DNA of 38,879 nt, from positions 1 to 38,879 of the forward strand of contig CAILUB010000002.1 in the NCBI GenBank assembly GCA_903837305.1. Direction: 5' to 3'. Both the position numbers and the translations under genes were made by a program. Below the pieces are notes generated by a model. The model was not told the DNA's origin. It made no database searches and worked only from the letters and a program-made list of their open reading frames with translations. Below are positions 223 to 31,932 of this stretch, one piece after another (positions within the stretch are counted from its first letter, which is position 1; each line of letters opens with the position of its first letter). Origin of the DNA: an uncultured Cytophagaceae bacterium. Its GTDB lineage: Bacteria; Bacteroidota; Bacteroidia; Cytophagales; Spirosomataceae.

Positions 223-243
223 TACTTGGCAAGTGGATAACTG

Positions 244-273
244 AAAAGACAGCCCGAAAGCTGTCTTTTTTTT
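244..273. terminator. Bidirectional intrinsic terminator
   Basis: AAAAGACAGC-ccgaaa-GCTGTCTTTT followed by a T run, between convergent genes. Confidence 0.8.
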
Positions 274-448
274 AGCATCCCGAATTGTACGCAAGGGTGC
301 GGCGGACCATATTGTACTATCGCCGCTCAAACATACGCCTCCGCCGACTAATCCGACTTCGTGCAAATCCCTTTGCTTCGCTTTGATCTCAAAGAGGATT
401 TATTGAGGTAGGGTATGTCTTTGCAGGGTTATGCCTTGGCAGGCATAA

Positions 449-1672
449 TCAGATATTTTCATTATAGCATACCCAGGCATCACGTAAAAATTTGACTTCC
501 TGTTTGCTTGGGTGTGGGAGTATATCAGGTGCTTCTTTAGTTAAAGGCGGGTATGTCTGAATATTGATATTCTTATTTCCCAGCCGGACCCAAGCCATAT
601 ATTCGTCAAGATCCAAAAAATCTTTCTTTTTTAAATCAAATAACCCGGCCATTCTGTCAGCTTCCTTGTCTCCTATTCTAAAAACTATAAAAGCGTTCAC
701 GTTGCCGAAAACCGATGAAAGAACCTTTGGCGATATTTCTTCAAAATCGTGATGTGCTAGTACCCAACCAACCTGCTTGTCTCGGCTCTTAGCAAGCATT
801 TCAGAAAAGTAAGGGCTGGCACATTCTTGAAATTCATCTACATAAACAATCAGGGGTTTTCTGTTCTTTATTTCAAATTCGCAATAGCTGACTATTGAAT
901 AAACGATTAAGTTAGATATATAAATTCTTGAAGTCCTTGACATTCGGCTGGTATCAACCAAGAGTGATTGATTATTTTCTAATAAGCGGTCAATGTAAAG
1001 CTCGTTCTCGCCAATAACAAAATCCCTCATTCTTCCATCGCAAATTTCCATTAGTCTGGAAGCTACACGCTTGGCGCTCTCAATCTTATCCTTGTTCCGT
1101 CTGATGTTCCTATCAAGTGCGTCAAACTCTTCCCAGTACCCGGCTACATTGGCAGGCATTTTATGGTTCTTCCGTGTTTTCTCGTAAAGCAAGAAGTCAA
1201 CCAGGTAATCAAGAGCTTTTTGATCATCTTTAAAAGCTCTTAACGCTTTACCAATTATCTCGCGCATTAATACCGTGCTTTCGGGGTTAGGACTAGTGAG
1301 GGTAACTAAAATGTCCAATACCTGGACGAACTCGGTAATTATATCATCTATGATATAACCCTGTTTTTTAAGCGGATTGATTACTATCGGATTGTTAATT
1401 GAAACGTAGCGGATGTTTTTGTCTTGGTTTAAATGGTGTAGTCTTTTAGAGCTGTCTCCTTTCGGGTCTATATAAACTATAGATATATCTTGGCTGATGT
1501 CATAATGAGCCATACGTTCCATTAAAACTGATTTACCCATTCCGGTTTTACCCAAGACGTAAGTATGGCTAAACCTGCTTTTCACCTTATTAATGATAGG
1601 CAAGTCTTGGTTAAGGTCTTGAAGTATGCCTAAATCTAACCTATATCTTTCTTGGTCTTTTCCGCTTTCCAC
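449..1672 (-). CDS. Type IV coupling protein-like ATPase (VirD4/TraD/HerA-FtsK superfamily)
   Basis: Walker A HTYVLGKTGMGKS, IDPKGD, Walker B IVYVDEFQ, SRDKQVGWVLAHH, GNVNAFIVFRIG; no N-terminal TM segment. Confidence 0.85.
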   Translation of the reverse strand: MESGKDQERYRLDLGILQDLNQDLPIINKVKSRFSHTYVLGKTGMGKSVLMERMAHYDISQDISIVYIDPKGDSSKRLHHLNQDKNIRYVSINNPIVINPLKKQGYIIDDIITEFVQVLDILVTLTSPNPESTVLMREIIGKALRAFKDDQKALDYLVDFLLYEKTRKNHKMPANVAGYWEEFDALDRNIRRNKDKIESAKRVASRLMEICDGRMRDFVIGENELYIDRLLENNQSLLVDTSRMSRTSRIYISNLIVYSIVSYCEFEIKNRKPLIVYVDEFQECASPYFSEMLAKSRDKQVGWVLAHHDFEEISPKVLSSVFGNVNAFIVFRIGDKEADRMAGLFDLKKKDFLDLDEYMAWVRLGNKNINIQTYPPLTKEAPDILPHPSKQEVKFLRDAWVCYNENI

Positions 1673-2370
1673 TTTTTAAAATCCACTTCGTTCTTTTTTT
1701 CTTCTACAATCTGCTCGGATAAACGTGCTTTCTGTTTAGTTTCTTCAACAACATAACCCTTGATAGCTTCCTGCATTTCAAAATCATTAAACTGCGTTCC
1801 GTTGGGATTAAATATTGATGATGTAATATAGGTTTGCAAAGTAGGTGGCATTGCTGATATGTCAATCTGCGTTAAAACCATTTTCATAAAATCGGCTTTA
1901 GCAAGCGCTTCTTGTGTTTTAGCTGACTTTAAATTAACATCTGCCATAGAATTTAGATTTGCTATCTCAAGAGCTTTTAACTGATGCTTCCTGCCCTCTT
2001 GTTCGTCACTAATAGCTTGTAATGCGTTTTGATGTTGAGCTAATTGAAGCTCTGCTGCTCTCTCTGCCTGTTGAAAAGCTCCTGCTATAAGCATTTCTAA
2101 AACTTCCTGATTAACGGCTAATTTAGCTTGTAAATTAAGAATTGCTGTATTGGCTATATTGATTTTTTCAATATAAGTTGTAATGTGGTCAATTCTTCCC
2201 TGGTCGTATCTCCAATGCTTAGATCTCCACCATTTTGAAATTCTGGTCTTAGGATTGGGGGTTTCAAGCATTTGATTTAGCTCTTGAACCAGATTAACGT
2301 AATTCAAGTTTAGGTCTGATAAATTGAATTGCCCGATACCTTTTTCTTTGTCTGCTTTCGTGTATGCCAT
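1636..2370 (-). CDS. Coiled-coil hypothetical protein in the mobilisation-like operon
   Basis: 244 aa, rich in Q/A/E/L heptads; coupled to neighbours (TAATG overlap at 2370). Confidence 0.7.
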   Translation of the reverse strand: MAYTKADKEKGIGQFNLSDLNLNYVNLVQELNQMLETPNPKTRISKWWRSKHWRYDQGRIDHITTYIEKINIANTAILNLQAKLAVNQEVLEMLIAGAFQQAERAAELQLAQHQNALQAISDEQEGRKHQLKALEIANLNSMADVNLKSAKTQEALAKADFMKMVLTQIDISAMPPTLQTYITSSIFNPNGTQFNDFEMQEAIKGYVVEETKQKARLSEQIVEEKKNEVDFKKWKAEKTKKDIG

Positions 2371-2906
2371 TATAGTACTATCTCCTTTTCGCAGTATTCA
2401 CAAAAAACAGTTTCAAGATATCTTTTACAATGTTCACACTTATCAGTTATATAGCGTTCTCTCGTTTGCACATTATTACAATGGTCGCAAGTCCATTTTG
2501 TATAGACTAAAATGCTTTTATCGCATTCCTTATTAGGGCAAGCAACATATTTTAAGGGAAATATTTTATGAAAAATAGATAAAATAGAACCAAGTAATAA
2601 CCCAAAAGCAACTGTATTTAAAAGCAATATATATAAAAGTGTTCCTATTAATTGGCTATTGTAAACTTGTTCTTTAGAAAATGGAGATGGCCAGAATAAT
2701 GGCCAAGTAAAGAATGTGTTTGAAGTATCGACAAAAACTCTCCAGGTCACAAAGACAGGGAAAACAATAAATATAGTTACTCCGAATAAAATTCTATAAT
2801 TATCTCTAAACTGAACTTTTTTAGCGAAATCAGACGCAAATAAATTTCTTTCCAAATAGTCTTTCAAACCTCCACCCCTCCCATTCTTTTTTGATATTTC
2901 CAACAC
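2370..2906 (-). CDS. Membrane protein with two TM helices and a C-terminal Zn-ribbon
   Basis: Two hydrophobic segments, then CPNKEC, CDHC, CEHC, CEYC; true start may be the TTG at 2867. Confidence 0.7.
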   Translation of the reverse strand: MLEISKKNGRGGGLKDYLERNLFASDFAKKVQFRDNYRILFGVTIFIVFPVFVTWRVFVDTSNTFFTWPLFWPSPFSKEQVYNSQLIGTLLYILLLNTVAFGLLLGSILSIFHKIFPLKYVACPNKECDKSILVYTKWTCDHCNNVQTRERYITDKCEHCKRYLETVFCEYCEKEIVL

Positions 2907-3507
2907 AAAGAACAGAGAAGCAAAACTGTTCTTCGGTGCAATACTTTAGTCCTAGTCTGTCGCTGTAAGTTTTCCACCACTTCTCGTATATAGATTTGTC
3001 TTTAGCCAGTATCTGATATTTATCTCGCTTCTGATTTAGGTAGTCGTGCCAATTAGGTTTTTCTTCTTCTATCTCAAGAAATACAAGTTTGTAGGCGTTT
3101 TCTTTTTTGTAAATAATAAGAGCGTCAGGGATTAAGAATGAAAAATGCGGAAATAGTGCAGTGTAAAAATCTTGTCGCTTAAATTCTTTTAATAAAAAAT
3201 CTGTAATTAGTAAAGAGTGTGCTGTAAAATTATTAACTGGTATTTTTACAAGGGTATAATAAGATTGGTCTTTTAGTATCTTATGAGTTTGTTCCGTTAT
3301 GGAATAGACTTTATTAAAGGTTAGATATCCGTTGTCAGTAAGCCATTTAAGTTTCTTGGGCGTTCCTAGCTTGTTATTAAAGGCGTTTAGGTGTTCTTTG
3401 GTCGTGTATCGGCAGATATAAGCGAAATAAAAAAAATCAAACAGTTGTTTGAAAGATGAACCTTTTGTAAGGTCGTTTAGGTCGGGGTATTTGTCCTCGT
3501 TCCGCAA
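2830..3507 (-). CDS. Replication-relaxation (Replic_Relax / MOBC-like) protein 1
   Basis: N-terminal wHTH-like region, HSLLITDF, and PDA-x-FLEIEE (D-x16-E-x-E); lies upstream of the coupling-protein-like gene. Confidence 0.7.
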   Translation of the reverse strand: MRNEDKYPDLNDLTKGSSFKQLFDFFYFAYICRYTTKEHLNAFNNKLGTPKKLKWLTDNGYLTFNKVYSITEQTHKILKDQSYYTLVKIPVNNFTAHSLLITDFLLKEFKRQDFYTALFPHFSFLIPDALIIYKKENAYKLVFLEIEEEKPNWHDYLNQKRDKYQILAKDKSIYEKWWKTYSDRLGLKYCTEEQFCFSVLCVGNIKKEWEGWRFERLFGKKFICV

Positions 3508-3688
3508 TTTATAGGTTTTACTATGGTGTTTTGTTTAATGTCAATAACTTAGATGAGTTTTTATAGGTTTGTATAATGGCGTAGCTGTTTGAATGAAGCC
3601 CGTGCGTTCATTGACTGTCATCAGGCAATGATAAGGAGGGGTTTATTGAAACACTTCATCTTAGGGCGGGTTTGCTTGGGTTTAAAAT

Positions 3689-4150
3689 CTATCCGTATTT
3701 TTTAATCGTGCTTTCTTTTAAATATTCACTCATGCTCTTCTTCGCTTCTCGTATGTTCCTTATGATCTCATAATTCTGCCAGGCTTTTTCGCCTCCGTAT
3801 TTCTTTTCCAGTTCGTTTAATTGTTCGTCTAACTGTTCCATTTTACTTTTGGTCTTTTCTTTATCAAAATTTATAACTCCAGTTCTACTGTTTACCGTTC
3901 CTGTTATGGGTATTTTAATCATATCCGATTGTATCCATTTGTAGCCGATAATCACACCCTTTGCGTTCTTAATCTTCTCGCATTTCACATTACTACCTTG
4001 TGCTTTTCTGTCATTTCTCGTTCTTCTTTCAAGGTTGCTCATCTTATATCTGTATTGTTTACATATCTGTTCAGCTTCATCTAAAGTCAAATAACCAGGG
4101 TATTTTGCTTTTAAGGCTTCCTCTAATTTTATTCTTAATCCTGTTTGCAT
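3689..4150 (-). CDS. Hypothetical protein (start re-called at MQTGLRIK)
   Basis: The longer ORF overlaps a better small gene; the ATG at 4150 follows that gene's stop. Confidence 0.65.
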   Translation of the reverse strand: MQTGLRIKLEEALKAKYPGYLTLDEAEQICKQYRYKMSNLERRTRNDRKAQGSNVKCEKIKNAKGVIIGYKWIQSDMIKIPITGTVNSRTGVINFDKEKTKSKMEQLDEQLNELEKKYGGEKAWQNYEIIRNIREAKKSMSEYLKESTIKKYG

Positions 4151-4154
4151 ATAA

Positions 4155-4304
4155 TTATTGTTTATAATCGTCATCTTCTTCATCATAACAATCTTCACAA
4201 ACACATCTATCGTCAAAATCGTTGAAATAAAACCATTCACCTTTTTGTATTTCCTTTCCACAATCTCGGCAAGTGTCGCCGAATTGACTTATAAAATGTT
4301 TCAT
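4155..4304 (-). CDS. Small Zn-finger protein, 49 aa (not in ORF track)
   Basis: MKHFISQFGDTCRDCGKEIQKGEWFYFNDFDDRCVCEDCYDEEDDDYKQ has two CxxC pairs and an acidic tail. Confidence 0.75.
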   Translation of the reverse strand: MKHFISQFGDTCRDCGKEIQKGEWFYFNDFDDRCVCEDCYDEEDDDYKQ

Positions 4305-4342
4305 ATGTTTATGTTAAAAAGGCGAACAGTAAGGCGTTTTAA

Positions 4343-4948
4343 TTAGTTTTTAGCCTGTAATAAGGGCTGATCTGGCACTTTTATAATGCCATTTTCTATT
4401 TCAAATTTCTCAAGGAATGGCAACTGCGGTATATCTATCCCTACACTTCGCCAATCCCTTGTCTGAATTGAAAGAATGATGTTTCGTTTCTCTTTGCTGG
4501 TAACGGCCAGGTTATACATCATTAGCGTGTTCTTCTCGATATCCAAGAAGTTTTTATAGTTCTTAAATTCAACGGTCTTTGATATTTTCTTGGCTGCGAT
4601 TAATTGCGATAATGTCGGTCTGTATGAATGCCCCACTAGGTTAAGGACAATATCGGGTTCATGTTCAACCTTTTCATTCACCACCTGGCAATCTCTCTTG
4701 TTAATTTCGTAGCCGAGCTGATCATATTGATTTTCCAATTCGGCTTTTTCTTTCTGATATTTCTCATACAATTCATCTTTGGCTTTCCGGATTTGACCTT
4801 GTTTTTCAATAAGCTTGTGAAGTCCCTTAGCCTTTCGGATGTTTTCAATTTCTTTCGTGGTGGCTTCTTTTAAAATGTCCGCTAAGCCATTGCGGATATC
4901 TGACAAGACTTCTCCCAAAGCCCTGTCAAGTGTGCGTGCGTTTGACAT
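4343..4948 (-). CDS. Hypothetical coiled-coil protein
   Basis: 201-aa ORF in operon orientation, directly downstream of the long hairpin. Confidence 0.7.
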   Translation of the reverse strand: MSNARTLDRALGEVLSDIRNGLADILKEATTKEIENIRKAKGLHKLIEKQGQIRKAKDELYEKYQKEKAELENQYDQLGYEINKRDCQVVNEKVEHEPDIVLNLVGHSYRPTLSQLIAAKKISKTVEFKNYKNFLDIEKNTLMMYNLAVTSKEKRNIILSIQTRDWRSVGIDIPQLPFLEKFEIENGIIKVPDQPLLQAKN

Positions 4949-4986
4949 ACGTTTTTTTGTTAATAGTTAAATCGAGAATGACGCCT

Positions 4987-5126
4987 TACTGTCCGTCTCG
5001 CCCATTGGAAAGCAGCGGATACCTTGGAGCCTGTCAAGAATAAGCAGTTATCCATCACGGTATGTGTGGGTAACTGCCCTTTACTGGCTTTAAGGTGCTG
5101 CTACAATGGAAGAAGACGGACAAGTA
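4987..5126 (+). promoter_or_regulatory. Long imperfect hairpin, candidate ssDNA (Frpo-like) promoter
   Basis: Five stacked stems with G-T pairs on the + strand; the 3' arm reads TTTACT-N16-TACAAT, opposite TGTCAA in the 5' arm. Confidence 0.6.
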
Positions 5127-5152
5127 GACATGACTATTAACAAAAAGGTTTT

Positions 5153-5701
5153 TTAAAGTTCTATGACTGAAAGGTTTTGGAGTCCAAAATGTATTGCTCT
5201 GTCGATATCTTTATCCATAAAAACATCTATTCTGTTCGTATATCGTCTATTCATCCGGTCGGCTACGGTGCAATCGCCAATCTTGTCAATTCTTAATTTG
5301 GTTTTTAAAGGGTAGGCGTTTGTGGCAACTATGCACTCGCCTTTCTTGTATCTCTGGCAAATATCCGTCCCGTCTGCTGAGATGCAAGGGCTGGCGTCTG
5401 TTTGCTCTGATACGGAATTATAAGCGGATATTTCTCTGATCGTTCCCTGCTTTTCATCAGGGCAAATAACGGCGTCTAATGAGCAGAGGGGGTTTGCTTC
5501 TCTTTCAGATATTTCGTCAATTTCATTTGATACATTTTTATCTTGTCTGTGTGATATTGTATTCTTGATAAGGTATAAGCTATCTTGTCTTTGTTCTCCT
5601 TCATACGCTTCAACCCTGCTCGATATGCCTATGACGGCTATACCAAGCATTAAGGCGGTTAAAATTATTAATTCAGCTTTTTGCTGGTTGATGTTTTTCA
5701 T
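5153..5701 (-). CDS. 3D (Asp-Asp-Asp) domain protein with N-terminal membrane anchor, putative lytic transglycosylase-like
   Basis: ISAYNSVSEQTDASPCISADG, IVATNAYPLKTKLRI, VADRM..RIDVFM. Confidence 0.85.
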   Translation of the reverse strand: MKNINQQKAELIILTALMLGIAVIGISSRVEAYEGEQRQDSLYLIKNTISHRQDKNVSNEIDEISEREANPLCSLDAVICPDEKQGTIREISAYNSVSEQTDASPCISADGTDICQRYKKGECIVATNAYPLKTKLRIDKIGDCTVADRMNRRYTNRIDVFMDKDIDRAIHFGLQNLSVIEL

Positions 5702-5717
5702 AAATTTATTTTTATTT

Positions 5718-6158
5718 TTATTTATTAAATTGTCGCTCTAATTCCTCTATGTTTGGAAATGGTATAAAAATTCCAGTCCGCTCGCCGATCATTCTGTTTA
5801 GCACTTCATACACTTTGTCAATCTCGTTTGATTTTAGCTGGGTGGTGCTTTTCTTTTTAAGCAATTCTTTTTGAATTGGTCGCCATAGATATTCTTTGGC
5901 GTTTATAGTGTCCCAGGGTATATCAATTTCTTGCTTCAATAATTTCTTCATATCAAACCCTGCGTCATTTAAGGCTTCTGATAGCTGAGTAAAATAAAGG
6001 TGTAGGGCTGCGTTTTGCTTGTCTGTGCGTGTTTTACGGTGTAGCTTGATGATTATATCTATCTGCTTGCCATCGAAGTTTGAAAGGTACTTTTTAAGCT
6101 GTGGCGTGTATATTATTTCACCGTCTTTTATTGTTGCTTGAAATTTAGGCTGGATCAT
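5718..6158 (-). CDS. NinB/Orf-like recombination accessory protein
   Basis: RTDKQNAALHLY and KSTTQLKSNE..YE motifs; lies after SSAP and SSB-like genes. Confidence 0.6.
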   Translation of the reverse strand: MIQPKFQATIKDGEIIYTPQLKKYLSNFDGKQIDIIIKLHRKTRTDKQNAALHLYFTQLSEALNDAGFDMKKLLKQEIDIPWDTINAKEYLWRPIQKELLKKKSTTQLKSNEIDKVYEVLNRMIGERTGIFIPFPNIEELERQFNK

Positions 6159-6219
6159 AAAGTTAAAACTTGGAGGAACGGTCTAGGTGTTACGCCGGAC
6201 CGCCCTCACTTCGTTTTAT

Positions 6220-6471
6220 TTAAAATGGCGGTTCTTCGCCTATTATCTCGATCTTGTCATCTTCCTGTTTCGGCTTCCAGTCATTAAGGTCGGCATAAAG
6301 CTTTCCCTCTTTGCTTTCCTTAATGTCGATGTTGACATAATTTGCTTCGTTGGCTTTGCTTTTAAGATACTCAATAAAAGTTTCTACCTTAAAGGATAGA
6401 TTAGCCTTTACGAAGTCGGGAGCGTTCTCACGTCTATTAACAAATAGACCTTTTACAAATTCTTTTTCCAT
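6220..6471 (-). CDS. Small putative ssDNA-binding protein
   Basis: Beta-rich sequence with an acidic tail ending EEPPF; follows the annealing protein; start re-called at MEKEF. Confidence 0.6.
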   Translation of the reverse strand: MEKEFVKGLFVNRRENAPDFVKANLSFKVETFIEYLKSKANEANYVNIDIKESKEGKLYADLNDWKPKQEDDKIEIIGEEPPF

Positions 6472-6475
6472 TGTT

Positions 6476-7036
6476 TTATTCAGCCCACGCTTCAATTATT
6501 CTTTTAGCGTTGGCTTCATTTAGTTCTTTAGTGCTTTTAATTACGATACCCGATTTGTTGGCGATAAGATTTAAAATGTCTTCTTCTTTCGGGTTGTCGC
6601 CAAGTTCTTTTGCCACCTTACTTCTTAAAAGGTTTAGTCCTTGTGTTCTGAAGTGAATACATTGTGTTTGCGTTGTCTTTGATAATTCTGCTTTCTTAAC
6701 CTCATCTACGCTTGCCACGCTGTCAATTACTCCAATACCCATCATAGCCAGGGCTCTGCCTACTGCTGAAGTTTCCGCGTTCTCTAAAGCTGAAGTCTTG
6801 TTAATATATCCTTGTCCGACTACTGCTTGACTATATCCGGTAAATTCTCTCTGCTCGTTGGCGTTCGGTTTAACTGTGGCTTTTACAATTATGTGGTCGC
6901 TTGTCGGATCGCTGACTAATTGGGTGGTTATACTTCCATTTTCGTAATTATGATTAAAGTAAATTATTCTATCAGCTACCAAGACATATTCCTTGCCTTG
7001 TATTTTAATAGCTTTATCTTTTAAATCTTGTGTCAT
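6476..7036 (-). CDS. Single-strand annealing protein (Rad52/Sak/ERF-like)
   Basis: IQGKEYVLVADRI and SALENAETSAVGRALAMMGIG. Confidence 0.75.
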   Translation of the reverse strand: MTQDLKDKAIKIQGKEYVLVADRIIYFNHNYENGSITTQLVSDPTSDHIIVKATVKPNANEQREFTGYSQAVVGQGYINKTSALENAETSAVGRALAMMGIGVIDSVASVDEVKKAELSKTTQTQCIHFRTQGLNLLRSKVAKELGDNPKEEDILNLIANKSGIVIKSTKELNEANAKRIIEAWAE

Positions 7037-7053
7037 AAATTTATTTGAATAAA

Positions 7054-7737
7054 TTAATATCCTGCTACGGCGTTGATATATTCTTCACTCTCTAAAATCC
7101 TGTTCTTTACTGTCGGCTCAATCGTATATGCTTTTTCAAAGAAATTCCAAGCAACTGTCGTATCTCCGTTTGATAATCTTAAGTATTCCTGTATTCTTGT
7201 TAGATATTCTTCATACTGCTGTTTCCTTTCTCTTGCCCCTATGATAGCCCCATATATTTTTTCAACAATTTCCGATGACGCTTCTTCCTGTTGGTCATAT
7301 TCGTTTTTTAAATCCTTGTAAGCGTCCTCGATTTTTTTATTGGAAATCAATATATCTTTAATGCCAAAATAGGTTTCTTTCTTGTAAACGGTAACAATGT
7401 TCACATCAACCAAATTTCCCTCATACGGTTTGGCATATTTATGGTCTGATCCTCCTCTGTAATAATCGTAATCGACCTTATACGCTTTTGTGATTTTACC
7501 GTTTACTGCCCTAGCTATTTCTTCTGCTGTTTCCCTGTCCTCGAAATGATATCCGCATACTTCATATAAAGTAAAATCTTTATCGGGTATCTGTCTATAT
7601 TCGGGAGTTTCGGGACAAACTACAATGCGTATTCCGGCTTCTGCTTTTTTTAATTTGATATACCAGTCAATCTGGTCTTGTGTTAGTTCAAGCAATTCTT
7701 TATCAGTTAATTGCTCAAATGGTTTTTGAAATTCCAT
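7054..7737 (-). CDS. Hypothetical protein
   Basis: 227-aa ORF in the early operon. Confidence 0.7.
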   Translation of the reverse strand: MEFQKPFEQLTDKELLELTQDQIDWYIKLKKAEAGIRIVVCPETPEYRQIPDKDFTLYEVCGYHFEDRETAEEIARAVNGKITKAYKVDYDYYRGGSDHKYAKPYEGNLVDVNIVTVYKKETYFGIKDILISNKKIEDAYKDLKNEYDQQEEASSEIVEKIYGAIIGARERKQQYEEYLTRIQEYLRLSNGDTTVAWNFFEKAYTIEPTVKNRILESEEYINAVAGY

Positions 7738-7743
7738 ATTTGT

Positions 7744-7893
7744 TTATTTAAATAAATTAGTGTTTGATTTGTAGGGTTTTTCTTCCTCTATATTGGTAAT
7801 GAATTGAAAGAAGTTTTTAACGAAGTTGGGAGTTTCCCATTTTAAATCATCTTCTTCTTTTATTATTCCGTATTTGTCGCTGAAGTATGCCAT
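7744..7893 (-). CDS. Small hypothetical protein, 49 aa (not in ORF track)
   Basis: MAYFSDKYGIIKEEDDLKWETPNF...; TAATATG coupling to the upstream gene and it fills the gap. Confidence 0.6.
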   Translation of the reverse strand: MAYFSDKYGIIKEEDDLKWETPNFVKNFFQFITNIEEEKPYKSNTNLFK

Positions 7894-7894
7894 A

Positions 7895-8227
7895 TTATTT
7901 AATTAATTGTCTTAATGAATTATCTTGATTTTCCAGTTGAGTGTAGTTAATTAGGAAGTCAAATATTTTTACTTTCTTGTCGCCTTTTAATTGCAAGGTA
8001 TCGTCTTGTCGCAAAACTGTATTTGCGTTCTCTACTTTTTTTTTAGCGTCTAGTAATATTTCTCTTATTTTCGCTTTAGCTCCCCCCTGGTCTTCCTTTC
8101 TAAAATAAAGGTGTTTGATGTAGCTGTATTGCTTATCGGTTAATTTTGAGATCAAGGCTTCCGGTATATCTTCGCCTAAAAGATTTGTTAAGTCGTGTGA
8201 TAGTGCAAAAATTTCATAGTTTGTCAT
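7895..8227 (-). CDS. Hypothetical protein
   Basis: 110-aa ORF in the early operon. Confidence 0.65.
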   Translation of the reverse strand: MTNYEIFALSHDLTNLLGEDIPEALISKLTDKQYSYIKHLYFRKEDQGGAKAKIREILLDAKKKVENANTVLRQDDTLQLKGDKKVKIFDFLINYTQLENQDNSLRQLIK

Positions 8228-8841: not shown

Positions 8842-9564
8842 TTAGGCTGTTAATGCCAAAAGCTGATTATGGCATTTAACGTGTTTCTCAAGGGCTATGG
8901 GTGGCGGTGCTGTTTTAAGCGCTTCCGTACAAGCCATATAATAGGCAAAAGCGTTTCGGTCCGTAAATTCTTCATGGCTGGGGTGCAACCATTCGTCTTT
9001 GACGGTGGTTAATTGCCTAGGTGAGATGATGTTCTTGCCAAACATCAAACCCATTGCTTTAAAGGCTTCATCGTCCGTCATCGGTCGGCTTTTAAGCGTG
9101 TCAATGTCGGCTGCTATTTCCTTAAAGCGATAAATAGACTTGTAAAGGGTTGAAATGATCATCGTTTCAAGATCGTTCCACACAAGGCGTGAGTGCCTCC
9201 TCATCGCCACTATATCGCCCGATAAGGCAAGATTGGAACAAATGAACACCGATGCACCTGTGGCAATTCCGATAGCTATACTCTTATCAAGGCTGTTGCG
9301 GTACGCTACTGATAAAGCAACGTCAGAAGCCTCGCCTTTAAAAGAAAGTATTGCAAAAAGTTGGTTGCCTTGTCTTGCCAGTCCGTAAGTTTCAGAAGAA
9401 AGAACGTAGTCTTTGAGGATGTTACCGGATATTTCTATCACCCTGTTTGCCAAGTCGAAATGCGATACCGGAATGAACGTGTCGGTCTGCTCTGGGACAG
9501 TAATAAGATCGAGAGCGTCCCTCGTTACATATTCACCACCTCTTGCCATCATTAATCCATTCAT
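8842..9564 (-). CDS. DUF932-family protein
   Basis: PVSH, RNSLDKSIA, ASVFICSNLALSGD..RRH motifs; SD GGAGGT. Confidence 0.75.
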   Translation of the reverse strand: MNGLMMARGGEYVTRDALDLITVPEQTDTFIPVSHFDLANRVIEISGNILKDYVLSSETYGLARQGNQLFAILSFKGEASDVALSVAYRNSLDKSIAIGIATGASVFICSNLALSGDIVAMRRHSRLVWNDLETMIISTLYKSIYRFKEIAADIDTLKSRPMTDDEAFKAMGLMFGKNIISPRQLTTVKDEWLHPSHEEFTDRNAFAYYMACTEALKTAPPPIALEKHVKCHNQLLALTA

Positions 9565-11920: not shown

Positions 11921-11974
11921 ACTTAAAATCCCTCGGAGCCTCGCTCTGTACGAGTTCGATTCTCGTCCCAGGCA
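11921..11974 (+). other. att core: 3' half of tRNA-Leu(UAA)
   Basis: Anticodon loop CTTAAAA, TCCCT, long variable arm CGGAGC/GCTCTG, T arm ACGAG-TTCGATT-CTCGT, acceptor strand CCCAGGC-A; no 5' half or D arm upstream. Confidence 0.9.
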
Positions 11975-11988
11975 TTACTTGTAAAATT

Positions 11989-12061: not shown

Positions 12062-13030
12062 TCAGAAAAAATTGTGCCCTAAGAACTGCAAATACCGCTG
12101 TGTCGTTGCCAGATTTGTATGGCCTAAAAGGTTCATGATCTCAATCAATGGTCTGCCTTCCGTTGCCAGTTTTGAAGCATATCTGTGGCGTAAATTATGC
12201 CAATTCCATTTAGTAGGAAACTCGCATAATTTGACAGCCTGTTCAAGAAAACGAGGGTAATCATCCCATTCATAGAATACCTTGCCCTTTCCGGTTATTC
12301 CGTTTAAGCAAGGCGGTAAAGGTACTATTCTGGCTGTCAAATTGCTGTTTTTGGCCTTTCTAGTATAAAGGATAACCTTATCATCCCGAATATGGTCATA
12401 TGACAGCCGTACAGCCTCGTTTATGCGACAACCGCTCTCTGATACAAAATCGAACAGTAAACGTTGTCTAGGGCTCAAAACTTCACGTACAAAGTCAATC
12501 TGTGATTGAGGAGGAATGTATTTTGCGTTTTGGTCAATAGAATACATTTCAATCCCGATAACAGGGTTTTTAATATCAAGTTCTTTTCGCCTTATTCCGT
12601 AAAAGAAAAGTGCCTTTAATAACCTGATCATGGAATTGACTTTAAAATAGCCCCTATTGGCCTTTTTAAGCCGTTTAGCTTCCAATTCTACAAGGTCAAT
12701 AATATCTTTCTTTCTAATCCTTGAAACCATTATATCCGTACCGAGAAAATCGATCAGCTTTTTCATATACCTTTTGTTTTCCTTGTAGTAATCAAGCGAC
12801 TTAGTATCTTTGATAAAATCGAGCCGGTCATTTACAAGGTCCAAGAGCTTCATGTCGGTACGAATATTGATAATCTTGTTTTGCAAATCCCGCAGATATT
12901 CCCTTTCAGCGTCCTGGGCTTGCTTCTTGGTGAGATACACGGATTTTGAACAATACTTAATCCCGTTAAAACTTCCGAGATAACGCCATCTTTCGCCGCG
13001 CTTTTTAAGCTTCCGTTTCTGGGCTGGCAC
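12062..13030 (-). CDS. int: Tyrosine integrase
   Basis: GCRINEA (R), HNLRH (HxxR), LLGH, TQRY (Y); SD AGGAGGT before the GTG start. Confidence 0.95.
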   Translation of the reverse strand: MPAQKRKLKKRGERWRYLGSFNGIKYCSKSVYLTKKQAQDAEREYLRDLQNKIINIRTDMKLLDLVNDRLDFIKDTKSLDYYKENKRYMKKLIDFLGTDIMVSRIRKKDIIDLVELEAKRLKKANRGYFKVNSMIRLLKALFFYGIRRKELDIKNPVIGIEMYSIDQNAKYIPPQSQIDFVREVLSPRQRLLFDFVSESGCRINEAVRLSYDHIRDDKVILYTRKAKNSNLTARIVPLPPCLNGITGKGKVFYEWDDYPRFLEQAVKLCEFPTKWNWHNLRHRYASKLATEGRPLIEIMNLLGHTNLATTQRYLQFLGHNFF

Positions 13031-16694: not shown

Positions 16695-17492
16695 TTAGTT
16701 ATTGTTAGTTAATATTATTATCTGTCCCATTTCTGGCAGTTGGGTGACTTCCTGAATATCGGATGTCCAAATGCCCATATCAAGCCCGGCTCGATATGTA
16801 TCAAAATTTATCAATAGGCAGGCTTTGCCTTTGGGATCAAGGGCGTAAACGTCTTTTTCCCCTTTCTTTTTTATTAATTTCATACGTTGATTGATTAAAA
16901 GTTGTTTGTTATAAATAGGTTTGGTGATAAAAAAGTCTGTCAGATCGACATATCCCCTTGAATTAGCATCTCCACAAGCCCAGCTCGCCACTCCGTTCTT
17001 GATTAATAACGGCCTTCCTCCAAAATGCGTATGCGGGCCGGTTGACATTCCTGTGCTTCCCATTTTAGCCAATACATCGCCGCGCTTGTACCACTTGTTA
17101 GCTGTGGCTATTATCTTTGTAGCATGTGCCAAAACAAATTCCATTTTAATCGTATCTCCATTTATTGTCTTGGTTTCTGTTTCAAAAAAGAGAAAATTGC
17201 CATATCCTCCGGCCTCATAACCGACATAAGTAATCCAGCCTTTTTCCAATGGCATAACAAGGTCTGATTCTAATGGTCCGGCAAAGTCATGTCCGTTATG
17301 TACTCTCGGCTTTCCGTCCAGGTATCCATAAACTCCTGTTTTCGCGTAGGGTGTCAATCCGAATTCCTGGGAATATTCAAAACCCCCGCCAATGATGTTT
17401 GAAAACTCATCTGTCCGGCCATTCCAAATAACACCGTTCTTTGCTATCGGGAGAGTAAGGGGGAATAGATCCCTGAAATAACTAACGTCCAT
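16695..17492 (-). CDS. M23 peptidase endolysin
   Basis: HNGHDF (HxxxD), GGYGN, LAHA, GSTGMSTGPHTHF (HxH). Confidence 0.9.
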   Translation of the reverse strand: MDVSYFRDLFPLTLPIAKNGVIWNGRTDEFSNIIGGGFEYSQEFGLTPYAKTGVYGYLDGKPRVHNGHDFAGPLESDLVMPLEKGWITYVGYEAGGYGNFLFFETETKTINGDTIKMEFVLAHATKIIATANKWYKRGDVLAKMGSTGMSTGPHTHFGGRPLLIKNGVASWACGDANSRGYVDLTDFFITKPIYNKQLLINQRMKLIKKKGEKDVYALDPKGKACLLINFDTYRAGLDMGIWTSDIQEVTQLPEMGQIIILTNNN

Positions 17493-17727
17493 ATTTTTTT
17501 CTTAATTTTGTAGATTGATAAATTACCTGGTCAGTTGCTTCATTCATTACTTCTTCGTCTAATTCATCTTGTGATAATTCCCAAATATTACCTCCGTGTT
17601 CGATAGCTCCTTGGGCGTATTTTTCAAAAGCTCTTTGACAAAAGAATTTCAGTGTTCCGTTAATATCGGATAACTGCTCGTCTGTTAATTTATCTTCAAA
17701 TTTTGATGTATCAATTTTTATTATCAT
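17482..17727 (-). CDS. Hypothetical protein
   Basis: 81 aa; KY..G..EHGG..EATDQVIY pattern. Confidence 0.6.
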   Translation of the reverse strand: MIIKIDTSKFEDKLTDEQLSDINGTLKFFCQRAFEKYAQGAIEHGGNIWELSQDELDEEVMNEATDQVIYQSTKLRKKYGR

Positions 17728-17863
17728 TTGGTTTATAAATAAAGTTTAATCTGTCTGCTATTTCCTGTCGTTTAGCATCATTCATTTGCTTTATTGGGCG
17801 ATAGTAGCCACAGCAACGTGTATAAACCTCACAAGACTGTCGTTTTAACGTGTTTGGTGTCAT
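17711..17863 (-). CDS. Stand-alone NrdD-like glycyl-radical domain peptide, 50 aa (not in ORF track)
   Basis: CEVYTRCCGYYRPIKQMNDAKRQEIADR parallels the NrdD C-terminal pattern CEVYSRVVGYLRP..WNxGKxxEFxDR. Confidence 0.75.
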   Translation of the reverse strand: MTPNTLKRQSCEVYTRCCGYYRPIKQMNDAKRQEIADRLNFIYKPNDNKN

Positions 17864-17927
17864 AGTTTTATATTAATGAATAATATTTGCCTGACACCAA
17901 GCGGTGTTAGGGTATAAGACGTTTGTC

Positions 17928-18074
17928 TTATTTCTTTATATGTTTCTTTATAATTTCAATAATGCTTCTAACTATACTGGCTCTTAATCCGTAAATTTCA
18001 GGGTACAAATCAAGGAGTTTTTGGCTCGGCATTTCCTTATCTCTGATTTCTTTGATTAAGGCGTTTAAATTCAT
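17928..18074 (-). CDS. Small hypothetical protein, 48 aa (not in ORF track)
   Basis: MNLNALIKEIRDKEMPSQKLL...; starts 3 nt after the upstream stop. Confidence 0.5.
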   Translation of the reverse strand: MNLNALIKEIRDKEMPSQKLLDLYPEIYGLRASIVRSIIEIIKKHIKK

Positions 18075-18077
18075 AGC

Positions 18078-18902
18078 TTATCTATTAATAATTTCTACGG
18101 CTTTTTCTTTTGAAAAAAATGTTGTGGTCGGACTTCCTATTCTGGCTGGTTCGCACATTAACCTTTCAGCGTATTCGGGATAATCAAGGTAAGCTCCACA
18201 ATCTACAACGTGCTGTTCAACTTCAGTTAAGGTGCATCTTTGTATATTAGGAATTAAAGCAAGAGGTTCTAAATATCCTATTAGGTGATTATGATTGCCA
18301 AAATAGCAATCGCAACCTCTGACTATGTTTCTCATCTTGTCTGTGCGGTTTAACTTGCCCCCATTAGTGCCTCCGCCTCCTGTGGTGTGCTGAATATAAC
18401 AAGAATAGGTTTGTCCTGTCCTATGGGGCAAATCTCGCCATTTTATAGGTGTTCCGTGCTTAGGTGGTCTGCCTACTTTTAAAAAAAGAAGACAACTAAC
18501 TCCGCAATAAACTATTTTTCTTTTCTCCGTGCTTAATCTTTGACAAAAACTATTAAGAAGTGAGTAATTAGCAAAGTCTATAACTCGGTGTTCGTGGTTT
18601 CCGTCTGTGACTCCTATGATCTTATCGGCAACTGGTTTGAATAACTCTACTGCGTAATCTTCTTCTTCGCTTTTAATTCTTGTGTTTTTAGAAAAAGGTG
18701 TTGTTTTACTTATTCTGGTTGATACGTTTAAAATATCACCATTTAAAAACAGCCTTGCATTTTCGTTTTGTTCAATTCTTTTTATTTTTTCTTTTAGTTT
18801 TTTTTCAGCTCTGGCGGTGAATGCTTCATCTCCTATGTGAATATCGCCTATAACGTGTAATTCTGCTATTTCATCAGGGATAATCTCCGTAATGATTTGC
18901 AT
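18078..18902 (-). CDS. Calcineurin-like metallophosphoesterase
   Basis: GDIHIG, NGD, GNHE, QH, NHNH motifs. Confidence 0.85.
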   Translation of the reverse strand: MQIITEIIPDEIAELHVIGDIHIGDEAFTARAEKKLKEKIKRIEQNENARLFLNGDILNVSTRISKTTPFSKNTRIKSEEEDYAVELFKPVADKIIGVTDGNHEHRVIDFANYSLLNSFCQRLSTEKRKIVYCGVSCLLFLKVGRPPKHGTPIKWRDLPHRTGQTYSCYIQHTTGGGGTNGGKLNRTDKMRNIVRGCDCYFGNHNHLIGYLEPLALIPNIQRCTLTEVEQHVVDCGAYLDYPEYAERLMCEPARIGSPTTTFFSKEKAVEIINR

Positions 18903-18903
18903 A

Positions 18904-19191
18904 TTATTTTTTTAAAGTTGTTTTTATCCAAGCAAGGTCTGTTTGAATTTGAGCAAGCTGCGCTTCTATCTTTGCGTTAATTATTTGATAATCATCAACC
19001 TTATTTTCCATTATACCTATTCGGTAAAAAGCATAACTGAATACGGCCATAATAATAGCCATTAATAAACCTATTATCCAAATAAATTGGGTGTTTTTAT
19101 CGCAAGCATCAATTTTGTCGGCTAGACATTTTTCTTTGTCATCGCAATCTTTTTTGGTGACTAAGTTTTCTTCACTTGTAATTGTGACCAT
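18904..19191 (-). CDS. Single-TM coiled-coil protein (holin/XhlA-like)
   Basis: One TM segment followed by a heptad tail; follows the tail genes. Confidence 0.55.
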   Translation of the reverse strand: MVTITSEENLVTKKDCDDKEKCLADKIDACDKNTQFIWIIGLLMAIIMAVFSYAFYRIGIMENKVDDYQIINAKIEAQLAQIQTDLAWIKTTLKK

Positions 19192-19208
19192 ATTTTTATT
19201 TTTATAGA

Positions 19209-20018
19209 TTAGTCGGCATTTACGACATAATCTTTTGCAAAATACCTATCAAAATAGATTCTAAAATTTTGAATGACGCCGTATCTATTGCTGTATGAGG
19301 ATAGATAATATAACTGGATTAAGTCATTTTTAGCGACCGTGATATCTTCAGAATAATTTATATATGTTTCTGTTGTATTTGTCCTTTCTGTACCGACTGC
19401 TGTTCCATTAACATAAATTATCGCTTTGCCATAGCCACTTGCATTTCCATTCCAATTCGCCTTTAAATCAAACTTAACCCTCACTGTACCAGCAAATCTA
19501 ATTTTAATTTCCTTGCCTAGTACATAAGAGGTATTATTGGTTGATCTCTCTGTATCCGCGCTTGCCTGTAAATTATCTGAGGCAACAACCATTATTTCGC
19601 GCTGGGTTGTTTTGTCTATTAATAATTCTGTTGCCGATATAGCAACACCAACCTTAATGACATACGTTCCTGGTGTAGTTCCTATCGTTCCGTCATCTTG
19701 GACATAGTATTTTTTTCCGACATCAAGACTTGATAGTCCTCTAACAGTTCCGGATAACTGAACGGCCATGGCAGCGTTTGCGCTTCCAGCTTCAAGAGCA
19801 AAGCCGTCAAAGTTTAACCTGGTCGTATCGTTTGCGTCGCAATATTTCCATTGATTAGCTGTATCGTCTAAAAATACCGGTCTAAGAGCTGTTATGGTTT
19901 CGGCTGCTTGAATGTCATCACGAAAACCGCCCGCGTCGTTGACGTTTTGAGATATTTGGTTTAGATCCGTGGCGTTGACTTTCTCGCCAGCCGCGTAATT
20001 GTCTTTAGCTTCTGCCAT
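19209..20018 (-). CDS. Virion tail fibre/appendage protein
   Basis: Beta-rich; LDVGKKYYVQDDGTIGTTPG..VGVAISATELLI; start re-called at MAEAKDNY. Confidence 0.65.
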   Translation of the reverse strand: MAEAKDNYAAGEKVNATDLNQISQNVNDAGGFRDDIQAAETITALRPVFLDDTANQWKYCDANDTTRLNFDGFALEAGSANAAMAVQLSGTVRGLSSLDVGKKYYVQDDGTIGTTPGTYVIKVGVAISATELLIDKTTQREIMVVASDNLQASADTERSTNNTSYVLGKEIKIRFAGTVRVKFDLKANWNGNASGYGKAIIYVNGTAVGTERTNTTETYINYSEDITVAKNDLIQLYYLSSYSNRYGVIQNFRIYFDRYFAKDYVVNAD

Positions 20019-20035
20019 ATAATAAAATTTAATAA

Positions 20036-20590
20036 TTAAGCTGATGCGAAAGTATATTTGCAACTTACAACCAAAACGATTGTATTTGATTTAACCCAGC
20101 TAAAGCCTGCAATATGACTCCAAAGACTTCCTGTGTCGGCGCTCGCTGTTCCTCCGATAAAGTTTCCAAACTCCGTGTAAGTTCCGTTACACTCTGTTTC
20201 GGTAAAGTAGGCTGTACAATATAAGACATTTGAAACGTCTGTCCCGCTCGCTGTGGCGTTTCTGTATGCTTCAGTGGTTAGTTTAACGTCTGTCGCTGCT
20301 GGTGTCGGTGTGCCTGTTCCTAGAGCCATTTTATTGATATAGCAATTATGAGCGTTATTATCACCAAGGGCGTGGGTTAGCGTGGCAAACCCAGCGTTGC
20401 AAATTACGTTTTTATGGTAATCAACATCAAGAAGTTTTCCCAATCGATAGAATTCTATTAATTTAGGAAATTGCTTTCTTAATTTTTCAATTCCTCTGTT
20501 GAATAACCTTTCAATCCAGGTGAGCGTTGATTGATCGTAACGCTTGGCGGTTATTTCGCCTAAGACTTTTACATTTTGATTGTCTTGCAT
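20036..20590 (-). CDS. Tail tip/baseplate protein
   Basis: KNVI..G, MALGTG..AATDVKL..E, ECNGTYTEFG pattern of tail-fibre N-terminal domains. Confidence 0.7.
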   Translation of the reverse strand: MQDNQNVKVLGEITAKRYDQSTLTWIERLFNRGIEKLRKQFPKLIEFYRLGKLLDVDYHKNVICNAGFATLTHALGDNNAHNCYINKMALGTGTPTPAATDVKLTTEAYRNATASGTDVSNVLYCTAYFTETECNGTYTEFGNFIGGTASADTGSLWSHIAGFSWVKSNTIVLVVSCKYTFASA

Positions 20591-20604
20591 ATATTGAAAT
20601 TTAA

Positions 20605-23127: not shown

Positions 23128-23129
23128 AA

Positions 23130-24617: not shown

Positions 24618-25112
24618 CTTTCTTTTTTATTAATTGATTTCTGGCTGAAATAATATCAAGGTAGGTTCTTATATCTGTTAAGCGTTCATTTCTGATTTGG
24701 CTTGGCGTCCAGCCGTATTCACGGCTCAACATTTCCATAACTAATTCAGCGGGCGGTTGTGCTTGACCGTCCATTGCTTTCATTAATTCGTATTCGTCTG
24801 TTTTTTTTTAGGGTTTGTTACTTCATCAATTTCTGAATAAAGATAGTCACCGTCATCTGCTGACAAATTGTCAATCCACTCCCGGCTGAATTGTTTTTTC
24901 TCTCCGTTCTCTCTGATTTCTTTTACGCAAACCTCGAAAGCCTTATATTTGCTTTCCCTGATTGAATTCGGATTAAATCCATTTAATCCCTCCATACCCA
25001 TTTTTACACCGTTTAATATGACTGACTGGATTTCTTCTTTTTCCCCCCAAGTTAAGAATGAAACAATATCAACCTCACATTTGGATAATTTGATTGTTTT
25101 TATTTCTCTCAT
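24610..25112 (-). CDS. Tail assembly chaperone G (24783-25112) and -1 frameshift product GT
   Basis: A9 run at 24801-24809 near the end of G; the -1 frame continues TDEYELMKAM..LSREYGWTPSQIR.. to a stop overlapping the tape measure start. Confidence 0.85.
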
Positions 25113-25113
25113 A

Positions 25114-26085: not shown

Positions 26086-26091
26086 ATTGTT

Positions 26092-26262: not shown

Positions 26263-26266
26263 ATTT

Positions 26267-26677: not shown

Positions 26678-26678
26678 A

Positions 26679-27125: not shown

Positions 27126-27129
27126 ATAT

Positions 27130-30820: not shown

Positions 30821-30869
30821 AATATTTTGCTTATTCTTGCCTCCCAAAAAGAGAGGCAAAGAAAACAAA

Positions 30870-31922: not shown

Positions 31923-31932
31923 ATTTTATAAT

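What the first reader, a model, noticed from the sequence alone, without database searches (positions are those of the whole stretch)
449..3688. Tailed phage carrying its own relaxase and coupling-protein module (a mobilisable phage?)
Seen: a four-gene overlapping operon (Replic_Relax-like D-x16-E-x-E nuclease, 2-TM Zn-ribbon protein, coiled-coil protein, VirD4/TraD-like ATPase) sits in a genome with complete virion genes and no VirB4 or pilus genes. Known: MOBC relaxases use this motif, and some mobilisable plasmids such as CloDF13 encode their own coupling protein and borrow a mating channel. Inferred: the phage has a second, virion-independent transmission route through a helper or host T4SS, with the TM protein replacing the ATPase's missing membrane anchor.
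Basis: partly seen in the sequence, partly recalled or inferred. Interest (0 to 1): 0.9.

Follow-up and report, generated by a model that had tools for sequence, protein, structure and literature searches.

The report
Mobilisation backbone shared by phages, islands
This temperate phage carries a plasmid-type set of genes for a predicted DNA-nicking enzyme and DNA pump; the same set is the fixed backbone of related phages with four different capsid types and of virus-free islands, and it likely offers a second, untested way for the DNA to leave the cell.

Summary
The four overlapping genes are real, intact and linked to a full virion set. They belong to a conserved integrative backbone: integrase, two Replic_Relax nucleases, ArdC/RadC in most relatives, membrane and coiled-coil proteins, a membrane-less TrwB-like ATPase, a catalytically degenerate primase and, in many relatives, an uncatalogued pseudoknotted RNA.

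The backbone occurs in Ignavibacteria and Desulfobacterota, with virion genes (13 of 41 loci; four capsid types) and without (19); the two states interleave on the ATPase tree. Membrane/coiled-coil and coiled-coil/ATPase fusions support a split coupling protein.

The helper-channel idea is weaker. A VirB4-like gene was found in 1 of 301 Ignavibacteria genomes, against 12 carrying the backbone ATPase; Desulfobacterota, this phage's likely host group, had 15 of 301.

The concept is in print: Bacillus phage 0305phi8-36 has a MobC-like relaxase, a membrane-less coupling ATPase and separate membrane proteins (Pathria 2012). This scan also noted such hybrids on other DNA.

Verdict: new variant of a known, still unexplained kind; DNA transfer is likely (0.5) but untested.

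The parts
449..1672 (-). Membrane-less TrwB/TraD-like ATPase (predicted motor of a split coupling protein); Walker A GKTGMGKS, DPKG, Walker B DE, R297 invariant
1636..2370 (-). Coiled-coil protein; fused to a membrane segment in 14 of 41 loci and to the ATPase in L109 and L123
2370..2906 (-). Two-membrane-segment protein with Cys-rich tail; sequence relatives found in Desulfobacterota loci L027, L031, L032 (plus one weak pairwise match in L109); predicted membrane anchor
2830..3507 (-). Replic_Relax-type nuclease (winged helix plus PD-(D/E)XK domain); predicted MOBC-like relaxase
3508..3632 (-). Candidate oriT/operator: AAACCTATAAA twice (3508-3518, 3560-3570), GCTACGCCAT motif (3576-3585) shared with relatives, small hairpin 3609-3630; untested, folding not above chance
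236..469 (-). Extended -10 promoter (-10 hexamer ends at 461), ~200-nt folded non-coding stretch and terminator-like hairpin (246-263); same layout as the pseudoknotted RNA of relatives, homology not shown
3689..8227 (-). Phage early-gene block (NinB-like and unknown proteins) in the first variable slot of the backbone
8842..9564 (-). DUF932-like protein; 44% to the same-position gene of phage L172
10270..11025 (-). Second Replic_Relax-type nuclease (H97, P130-D131, E144-x-E146, K158 invariant in 13 sequences), first gene of the backbone in relatives
11921..11977 (+). att core: 3' part of tRNA-Leu(TAA); joined integrase-to-Relax2 as expected for the excised form; matches tRNA-Leu of 2 of 301 Desulfobacterota genomes
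12062..13030 (-). Tyrosine integrase, 42-52% to integrases of related elements; 13147-13386 (+) looks like an excisionase (by eye)
16695..36536 (-). Late block: terminases, portal, protease, HK97 capsid, glycosyltransferases, connectors, tail, M23 peptidase; second variable slot
37346..38143 (-). DnaG-like protein lacking the TOPRIM acidic motifs; follows the ATPase in relatives, so the contig is likely a broken circle

Best explanation
The four genes are part of a conserved integrative backbone that occurs with and without virion genes, and they likely form a MOBC-type mobilisation unit: after excision the Replic_Relax nuclease would nick the circle next to its own gene, and a coupling protein split into membrane, coiled-coil and ATPase parts would pump the DNA into a channel that the element does not encode. 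Shown: gene content and order, intact catalytic residues, TrwB-like fold, fusions between the three parts, tRNA integration, four capsid types on one backbone, virion-less relatives. Inferred: nicking at 3508-3632, assembly of the three parts, export of single-stranded DNA, with ArdC/RadC (in relatives) and the dead primase acting in the recipient. Open: the channel. For this phage, whose att points to Desulfobacterota, a passing conjugative element is plausible; for Ignavibacteria carriers a resident T4SS was almost never found.
For: ATPase model aligns best with TrwB-deltaN70 (Z 30.7, rmsd 3.4, 354 aligned), then VirB4-CTD 27.9, DndH-C 26.5, the Legionella coupling complex 26.1, HerA 24.6, and starts where the soluble TrwB part starts. 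Of 43 non-redundant ATPase loci with at least 2.6 kb upstream, 41 have the nuclease within 2.6 kb; of these 40 have the coiled-coil and 32 a predicted membrane protein between them, 14 as membrane/coiled-coil fusions. Coiled-coil/ATPase fusions occur in two distant members, L109 and L123. ArdC and RadC-like genes flank the second nuclease in relatives; these are typical of transferred leading regions (established knowledge). 19 of 41 loci have the backbone without late genes, so they need a route other than their own virions. Two of four fully read integrated phages carry their own O-like or DnaD-like initiator (G063, G064), so the module is not their only replication start. dN/dS among virion-bearing relatives is low in unsaturated pairs: nuclease 0.16 (5 of 15 pairs), ATPase 0.05 (2 of 21), coiled-coil 0.21 (4 of 15). 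The analogous operon of phage 0305phi8-36 can be deleted with no growth defect (PMC3357382). MOBC relaxase plus own VirD4 is a known IME class (PMC5357655).
Against: A VirB4/TraG-like gene was found in 1 of 301 Ignavibacteria genomes (PF19044; G345, not among the 12 carriers) and 0 of 301 with PF03135; only the top 5-10 candidates per genome were scored and MAGs lose plasmids. The two genomes with the matching tRNA also lack one. No membrane protein was predicted in 9 of 41 loci, including L172, the phage closest to this one in layout. The window, G061 and G062 show no recognisable replication initiator (only selected ORFs of G061/G062 were scanned), and the module sits where temperate phages usually keep replication genes. 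The candidate oriT folds no better than shuffles (z -0.57) and its repeat pattern was chosen after seeing the alignment. Virion-less relatives could instead spread as satellites. No nicking or transfer data exist.
Confidence: 0.5

Rival explanations
1. Replication or maintenance module: the nuclease nicks to start rolling-circle-like replication of the excised circle, the ATPase moves or segregates DNA at the membrane, and the RNA and dead primase prime the second strand.
For: Position between early recombination genes and terminase, directly before a DnaG-like gene; no initiator seen in the window, G061 or G062; Bacillus phage papers file Replic_Relax plus FtsK under replication and segregation (PMC9658697, PMC11526630); helper channels are scarce in the main host group.
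Against: G063 and G064 have their own initiators; the fold is TrwB-like, not a replicative helicase; the primase lacks its acidic motifs; the analogous Bacillus operon is dispensable for lytic growth.
Confidence: 0.25
2. Passenger backbone: the module works only in the virion-less islands; phages inherit it by recombination because it lies between the integrase and their gene blocks, and gain nothing from it.
For: Virion-positive and -negative elements interleave on the ATPase tree (at least 8 changes; shuffled mean 10.3) and capsid type does not follow the tree; five loci have early genes but no late genes (L001, L002, L003, L005, L025).
Against: Reading frames and catalytic residues are intact in the window; dN/dS is low between virion-bearing relatives with dS near or above 1, although selection could have acted while they were virion-less.
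Confidence: 0.12
3. HerA-nuclease anti-phage or superinfection-defence system.
For: Pfam DUF87 (HerA central domain) is the best family hit; PADLOC mad8 hit E 4.5e-18; many relatives carry defence cargo such as SMODS and restriction genes.
Against: Structure ranks TrwB above all HerA entries and the protein lacks the N-terminal extension of the HerA chains; no PADLOC hit for the nuclease, membrane or coiled-coil proteins; the genes are fixed backbone, while defence genes sit in variable slots.
Confidence: 0.08
4. Assembly chimera of an island and an unrelated phage.
For: The contig does not close, no single independent contig spans it, and it looks foreign to its bin.
Against: Same order in 12 other virion-bearing loci (labels), in an att-bounded element (G062) and in L172 with the same att-joined layout; similar depth along the window in three runs.
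Confidence: 0.03

Closest known systems
'DNA translocation operon' of Bacillus phage 0305phi8-36 (orf200/201/203/207) and homologues in SPO1, Gamma, GBSV1 (Pathria et al. 2012, PMC3357382; abstract, passages of sections 7-9 and section 15 read)
   Same: MobC-like HTH plus nuclease relaxase, adjacent coupling-type ATPase without a membrane segment, separate membrane proteins proposed as anchor, inside a tailed phage; function unknown.
   Different: Here a ~400-aa ATPase family with a coiled-coil partner and fusions, two nuclease paralogues, a dead primase and an RNA; Gram-negative hosts; the same backbone exists without virion genes. Direct homology to orf200/201 was not tested by sequence; an 802-aa BFVD entry without a name (A7KUX5) ranks fourth and I recall it as a 0305phi8-36 protein.
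IMEs with PF13814/MobC relaxase and own VirD4 (IME class 8, Coluzzi et al. 2017, PMC5357655; passages read) and plasmid CloDF13 MobB/MobC (as cited in PMC3357382)
   Same: Integrase plus Replic_Relax nuclease plus coupling ATPase, no mating-pair genes.
   Different: Tyrosine not serine integrase; coupling ATPase split from its membrane part; two nucleases; 13 of 41 loci carry virion genes; mobilisation untested.
Replic_Relax plus FtsK/SpoIIIE (plus TrbC/VirB2-like) genes of Bacillus temperate phages (PMC9658697, PMC11526630; passages read)
   Same: Nuclease, translocase and small membrane protein together in a temperate phage.
   Different: ATPase here is TrwB-like (FtsK Z 17.5 against TrwB 30.7); those papers assign replication or segregation without tests.
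Streptococcal prophages mobilised by ICEs (Huang et al. 2023; not held, known only from its citation in the review PMC12282955)
   Same: Prophage DNA moved by another element's conjugation machinery.
   Different: Whether they encode their own relaxase and coupling protein could not be read. [quoted passage not shown]
HerA-nuclease defence systems (Sir2-HerA, DUF4297-HerA) and HerA-NurA
   Same: Same ATPase superfamily beside a nuclease.
   Different: Lower structural rank (Z 19-25), longer proteins with an N-terminal extension absent here; no PADLOC match for the partners.

Membership tests
MOBC / Replic_Relax (PF13814) relaxases | D-x(6-17)-E-x-E triad in a PD-(D/E)XK domain (motif recalled from the MOB classification literature) | tested here: met
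   D128-x16-E145-x-E147; D in 64, E145 in 64, E147 in 63 of 65 rows; C-terminal half aligns to NucS and other PD-(D/E)XK chains at middling Z 7.4
MOBC / Replic_Relax (PF13814) relaxases | Family HMM score above the curated cut-off | tested here: inconclusive
   Window protein 18.5 bits against cut-off 25.3; 10 of 65 relatives match, best E 3e-9; a Relax2 relative just passes at 25.5. MOBscan profiles are not available here
MOBC / Replic_Relax (PF13814) relaxases | N-terminal winged-helix DNA-binding domain | tested here: met
   Residues 1-83 align to MarR-type wHTH chains, Z 7-8
MOBC / Replic_Relax (PF13814) relaxases | Site- and strand-specific nicking at oriT | not testable with these tools
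   Needs biochemistry; candidate region only
Type IV coupling proteins (TrwB/VirD4/TraD) | Nucleotide-binding plus all-alpha domain fold of TrwB with intact Walker motifs | tested here: met
   Z 30.7, rmsd 3.4 over 354 residues; G41, G46, K47, S48, D279, E280 invariant in 70 rows
Type IV coupling proteins (TrwB/VirD4/TraD) | N-terminal membrane anchor in the same chain | tested here: not met
   0 of 70 rows have a hydrophobic segment; anchor would have to come from the upstream proteins
Type IV coupling proteins (TrwB/VirD4/TraD) | Curated family score (TraD/VirD4 HMMs) | tested here: not met
   SXT_TraD 50.9 bits against cut-off 366; conj_TOL_TraD 33.7 against 647.55
Type IV coupling proteins (TrwB/VirD4/TraD) | Delivers a relaxase-DNA substrate to a T4SS | not testable with these tools
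Integrative mobilisable elements | Own integrase and att site | tested here: met
   Integrase 12062-13030 and tRNA-Leu core; att-bounded relative G062 and tRNA-adjacent G061, G064
Integrative mobilisable elements | Relaxase-type gene without mating-pair genes | tested here: met
   No VirB4 or pilin family among 42 window ORFs
Integrative mobilisable elements | A helper conjugation system in the host population | tested here: inconclusive
   VirB4-like in 1 of 301 Ignavibacteria and 15 of 301 Desulfobacterota genomes; MAG samples, few candidates scored per genome
HerA defence/repair ATPases | HerA closer than coupling proteins in structure, with N-terminal HAS-barrel extension | tested here: not met
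   Best HerA Z 24.6 against TrwB 30.7; model residue 6-8 aligns to HerA residue 110-157
DnaG primases (gene 37346-38143) | TOPRIM catalytic glutamate and DxD motif | tested here: not met
   Profile matches DnaG chains (E 1e-7) but the glutamate column is V/T/I in 25 of 29 rows and the DxD region reads H-x-E
Catalogued RNA families (Rfam 15) | Match at the family's gathering score | tested here: not met
   0 matches in the window and five loci; only terminator-level or chance hits far below cut-off at E<=5

The most novel reading that the evidence does not exclude
The backbone is a self-contained chassis that loads and sheds whole phage programmes in two fixed slots and exports its DNA without any resident T4SS, either pushed by the split coupling protein into a neighbour's competence machinery or through the T4SS of a Patescibacteria epibiont, with the pseudoknotted RNA and the dead primase as an RNA-based priming device. 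Leads: near-absence of VirB4 in the main host class, ComEC in 5 of 5 genomes checked (common in controls too), and Patescibacteria labels on 3 of the 7 taxon-named relatives of the window's capsid, including the closest three (58-62%; not seen for the second capsid type).
Probability: 0.15. Interest if true: 0.88.

Novelty: new variant of a known kind. Interest (0 to 1): 0.55.

Why it matters
[quoted passage not shown] This family offers a natural experiment: one backbone, with and without virions, with split and fused forms of the pump, in hosts with and without mating channels. If it transfers DNA, temperate phages can cross hosts their tails cannot infect, which would explain one backbone in two phyla. 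If it replicates DNA instead, Replic_Relax/TraD-like pairs are being miscounted as mobilisation modules. The RNA found in relatives is an uncatalogued structured RNA in its own right.

Tried and rejected
Complex prediction of ATPase with the coiled-coil protein gave no answer (score 0.00); this is no evidence either way. No RNA holder was listed for the stretch. Single-sequence scans of viral contigs with the ATPase and the nuclease found nothing; the alignment did. PDB sequence search with the ATPase profile found nothing at E<=0.001, nor did the nuclease profile at useful E; Foldseek gave the nuclease no match at E<=0.001. My recollection that the pXO1-14/16 replicon is a Replic_Relax/ATPase pair found no support in the passages read (PMC4219350) and was dropped. 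No tRNA gene in the window; repeats search gave no iterons or terminal repeat. The bin as host was rejected: its tRNA-Leu(TAA) differs from the att core and 0 of 36 same-genus genomes have the ATPase; I did not run the att pattern over Ignavibacteria as a control. Close capsid relatives in viral contigs (L112-L114) are too short to show the module. A structure string given was out of register; that result is discarded and the count was redone. No covariance model was obtained; sequence-only profiles did not match the window's own non-coding stretch. The tree is the quick IQ-TREE search, the careful one did not finish; clustering of the virion label was not significant (36-46 of 500 shuffles as low). 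Literature searches: replication-relaxation+phage+FtsK, prophage+relaxase+coupling protein+hybrid+mobilizable (33), Replic_Relax (37), Ignavibacteria+prophage+relaxase (126, two unrelated listings), MOBC+prophage+coupling protein (136); none listed this family, but subscription papers are not held and no supplements were read.
Full report
Observation. The window is a whole 38.9-kb contig of a binned assembly. Four overlapping minus-strand ORFs lie at 449-3507 as described. They sit with a full set of head, tail and lysis genes, and no mating-pair family was hit among 42 ORFs scanned. The nuclease carries D128-x16-E145-x-E147, conserved in 63-64 of 65 relatives, and folds as a winged helix plus a PD-(D/E)XK domain (Z 7-8, middling). 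The ATPase model (mean pLDDT 89) is closest to the soluble part of TrwB (Z 30.7), ahead of VirB4 (27.9) and HerA (24.6). It has no membrane segment, nor do any of 70 relatives.

A second Replic_Relax gene lies at 10270-11025. The 3' part of a tRNA-Leu(TAA) lies at 11921-11977 next to a tyrosine integrase. A DnaG-like gene without its catalytic acids lies at 37346-38143; in relatives it follows the ATPase, so the contig is likely an excised circle broken between the two. The att core matches full tRNA-Leu genes in 2 of 301 Desulfobacterota genomes (1 and 3 mismatches) and not the bin's own tRNA, so the host is probably a Desulfobacterota member and the contig mis-binned (inference).

The family. 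The ATPase has 644 relatives in the protein collection. Scans with its alignment returned 33 close loci among 64 from genomes (Ignavibacteria and related bins, four Desulfobacterota; the other 31 are distant ATPases and were left out), 8 from viral contigs and 80 from metagenomes. The conserved order is: second nuclease, ArdC, RadC-like/small protein, a variable slot, nuclease, membrane and coiled-coil proteins, ATPase, primase-like gene, a second variable slot, integrase. The window has a DUF932 gene instead of ArdC, as does phage L172. Among 41 loci placed on a tree, 13 (the window included) have terminase, portal or capsid genes within 10 kb downstream, 19 have none within at least 4 kb, and 9 are too short. 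The two states interleave (at least 8 changes; quick tree). Four capsid types occur: HK97-type here, and phrog_1357, phrog_267 and phrog_4523-like in relatives. Four phage versions were read in full inside chromosomal contigs: G061 and G064 end at tRNA-Thr genes beside the integrase, and G062 is bounded by a 100-bp tRNA-Asp repeat 39 kb apart. L172 repeats the window's integrase-att-nuclease junction with a different virion set. This, with similar depth along the window in three runs of one study, makes a chimera unlikely.

How it most likely works. I read the module as a MOBC-type mobilisation unit with a split coupling protein. Of 43 non-redundant loci with enough upstream DNA, 41 have the nuclease; 40 of these have the coiled-coil, 32 a predicted membrane protein, and 14 a membrane/coiled-coil fusion (ORFs under 70 aa were not called). 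Two distant members fuse coiled-coil to ATPase (L109, L123; L123 could be a frameshift read-through). Upstream of the nuclease a 7-mer recurs, 102 copies in 31 loci against 19 in shuffles, with a shared GCTACGCC-like motif in 18 (pattern chosen after seeing the alignment). This is a candidate oriT or operator; the window's copy does not fold better than chance. Selection keeps the genes in virion-bearing relatives (dN/dS 0.05-0.21 in the few unsaturated pairs). Nicking, assembly and transfer are all inferred.

Results against this reading. Mobilisation needs a channel. In 301 Ignavibacteria genomes 12 carry the ATPase but 1 has a VirB4/TraG-like gene and none a CagE/TrbE-type one; nine of ten carriers checked singly lack one, the exception being a Desulfosarcina genome. 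In 301 Desulfobacterota genomes the figures are 1 and 15. Bins lose plasmids, and few candidates were scored per genome, but the scarcity is real in this sample. Nine of 41 loci lack a predicted membrane protein. The module lies where temperate phages keep replication genes, and the window, G061 and G062 show no initiator, although G063 and G064 do. Replication is therefore the main rival (0.25).

The RNA. Between ATPase and primase-like gene, 46 of 61 distinct loci have an extended -10 box at the ATPase end, and most have a second one 230-290 bases on. The stretch between forms two subfamilies (23 and 17 sequences chosen by promoter spacing; several, such as L070 and L172, were left out). Excluding the terminator, 91% and 90% of cells pair against 80% and 69% in shuffles (0 of 500 as high), with 102 and 165 two-sided changes and G-U far above A-C (144:10, 145:15). 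An internal loop and a hairpin loop covary as a pseudoknot (0 and 1 of 2000 permutations). The structures were derived from these same alignments and the sequences are related, so the shuffle counts are not probabilities. No Rfam family matches. The window has the same layout (promoter ending at 461, folded stretch z -3.4, terminator-like hairpin) but its sequence did not match either profile, so homology is not shown.

Comparison with what is known. Pathria et al. 2012 (PMC3357382; abstract, passages and section 15 read) described a MobC-like relaxase, a coupling ATPase without a membrane segment and separate membrane proteins in Bacillus phage 0305phi8-36, with homologues in SPO1 and Gamma, deleted it without a growth defect, and left the function open. 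I reached this paper through an earlier scan note. Bacillus temperate phages with Replic_Relax and FtsK are annotated as replication or segregation genes. IMEs with PF13814 relaxase and VirD4 exist in streptococci. A 2025 review says no integrated prophage has been found conjugative. Patescibacteria carry a T4SS widely but relaxases rarely (PMC12102498, passages); the closest taxon-named relatives of the window's capsid come from Patescibacteria bins, which is a lead only. The module works like a MOBC/T4CP pair; strict membership of the coupling-protein family fails on the missing anchor and HMM cut-offs.

Verdict. Real, conserved and under selection; a new variant of a kind first reported in 2012 and seen in eight other notes of this scan. 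New here are the shared backbone across four capsid types and virion-less islands, the fusion series, the near-absence of helper channels in the main host class, the dead primase and the pseudoknotted RNA. My searches listed no paper on this family; subscription papers and supplements were not seen. Interest 0.55.

Noticed in passing
L025:7922-8105, L133:11242-11428 and about 40 other loci; window 236-455 (-) by position only: Uncatalogued ~190-nt structured RNA with its own promoter and terminator, four helices and a covarying pseudoknot, between the ATPase and the primase-like gene; when an insertion separates the two genes it stays with either one.
   Followed up: partly
window 37346-38143 (-): DnaG-like family with all TOPRIM acidic motifs lost yet strongly conserved (dN/dS about 0.1); H224 invariant in 29 sequences.
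   Followed up: partly
window 27958-30629 (-): Two glycosyltransferases and an FkbM-type methyltransferase directly after the capsid gene, also in L112 and L114; possible capsid glycosylation.
   Followed up: no
window 14957-16399 (+): DNA methyltransferase fused to an Mrr-like/inactive restriction domain, the only long plus-strand gene; methyltransferases sit at the same place in G061 and G063.
   Followed up: no
window 220-263, 11582-11754, 14893-14902: Repeated GTGGATAAC/TTATCCAC boxes and GACAGCCCGAAAGCTG-type hairpins in intergenic regions; the box resembles a DnaA box (recalled) and also precedes Relax2 in L172.
   Followed up: no
window 30870-31922 (-): Closest taxon-named capsid relatives are from Patescibacteria bins (58-62%), while the att site points to Desulfobacterota and most backbones sit in Ignavibacteria.
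   Followed up: partly
L001, L002, L003, L005, L025, L152, L154, L166: Backbones with phage early genes (ERF and others) but defence or restriction cargo instead of virion genes: intermediates or satellites.
   Followed up: partly
G062:C33 66078-107316; G065:C7 57007-61868: Tandem elements and second integrases at the same site; G062 has two related integrases on either side of the att repeat.
   Followed up: no
L004, L065, L072, G061:C21 248079-250585: SMODS nucleotidyltransferase (CBASS-like) cassettes in the variable slots of phage versions.
   Followed up: no
window 1-222 and 38752-38879: Contig ends differ in character (low-GC sigma70-region-4 ORF; loose contig ends at 161 and 38752 in other runs) and may not belong to the element.
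   Followed up: no
G000 contig C118: Five tRNA-Leu genes with different anticodons in one 450-bp array.
   Followed up: no
L034-L037, L058: Distant ~490-aa ATPases of Bacteriovoracaceae; in L037 and L058 a weakly matching nuclease follows the ATPase.
   Followed up: no
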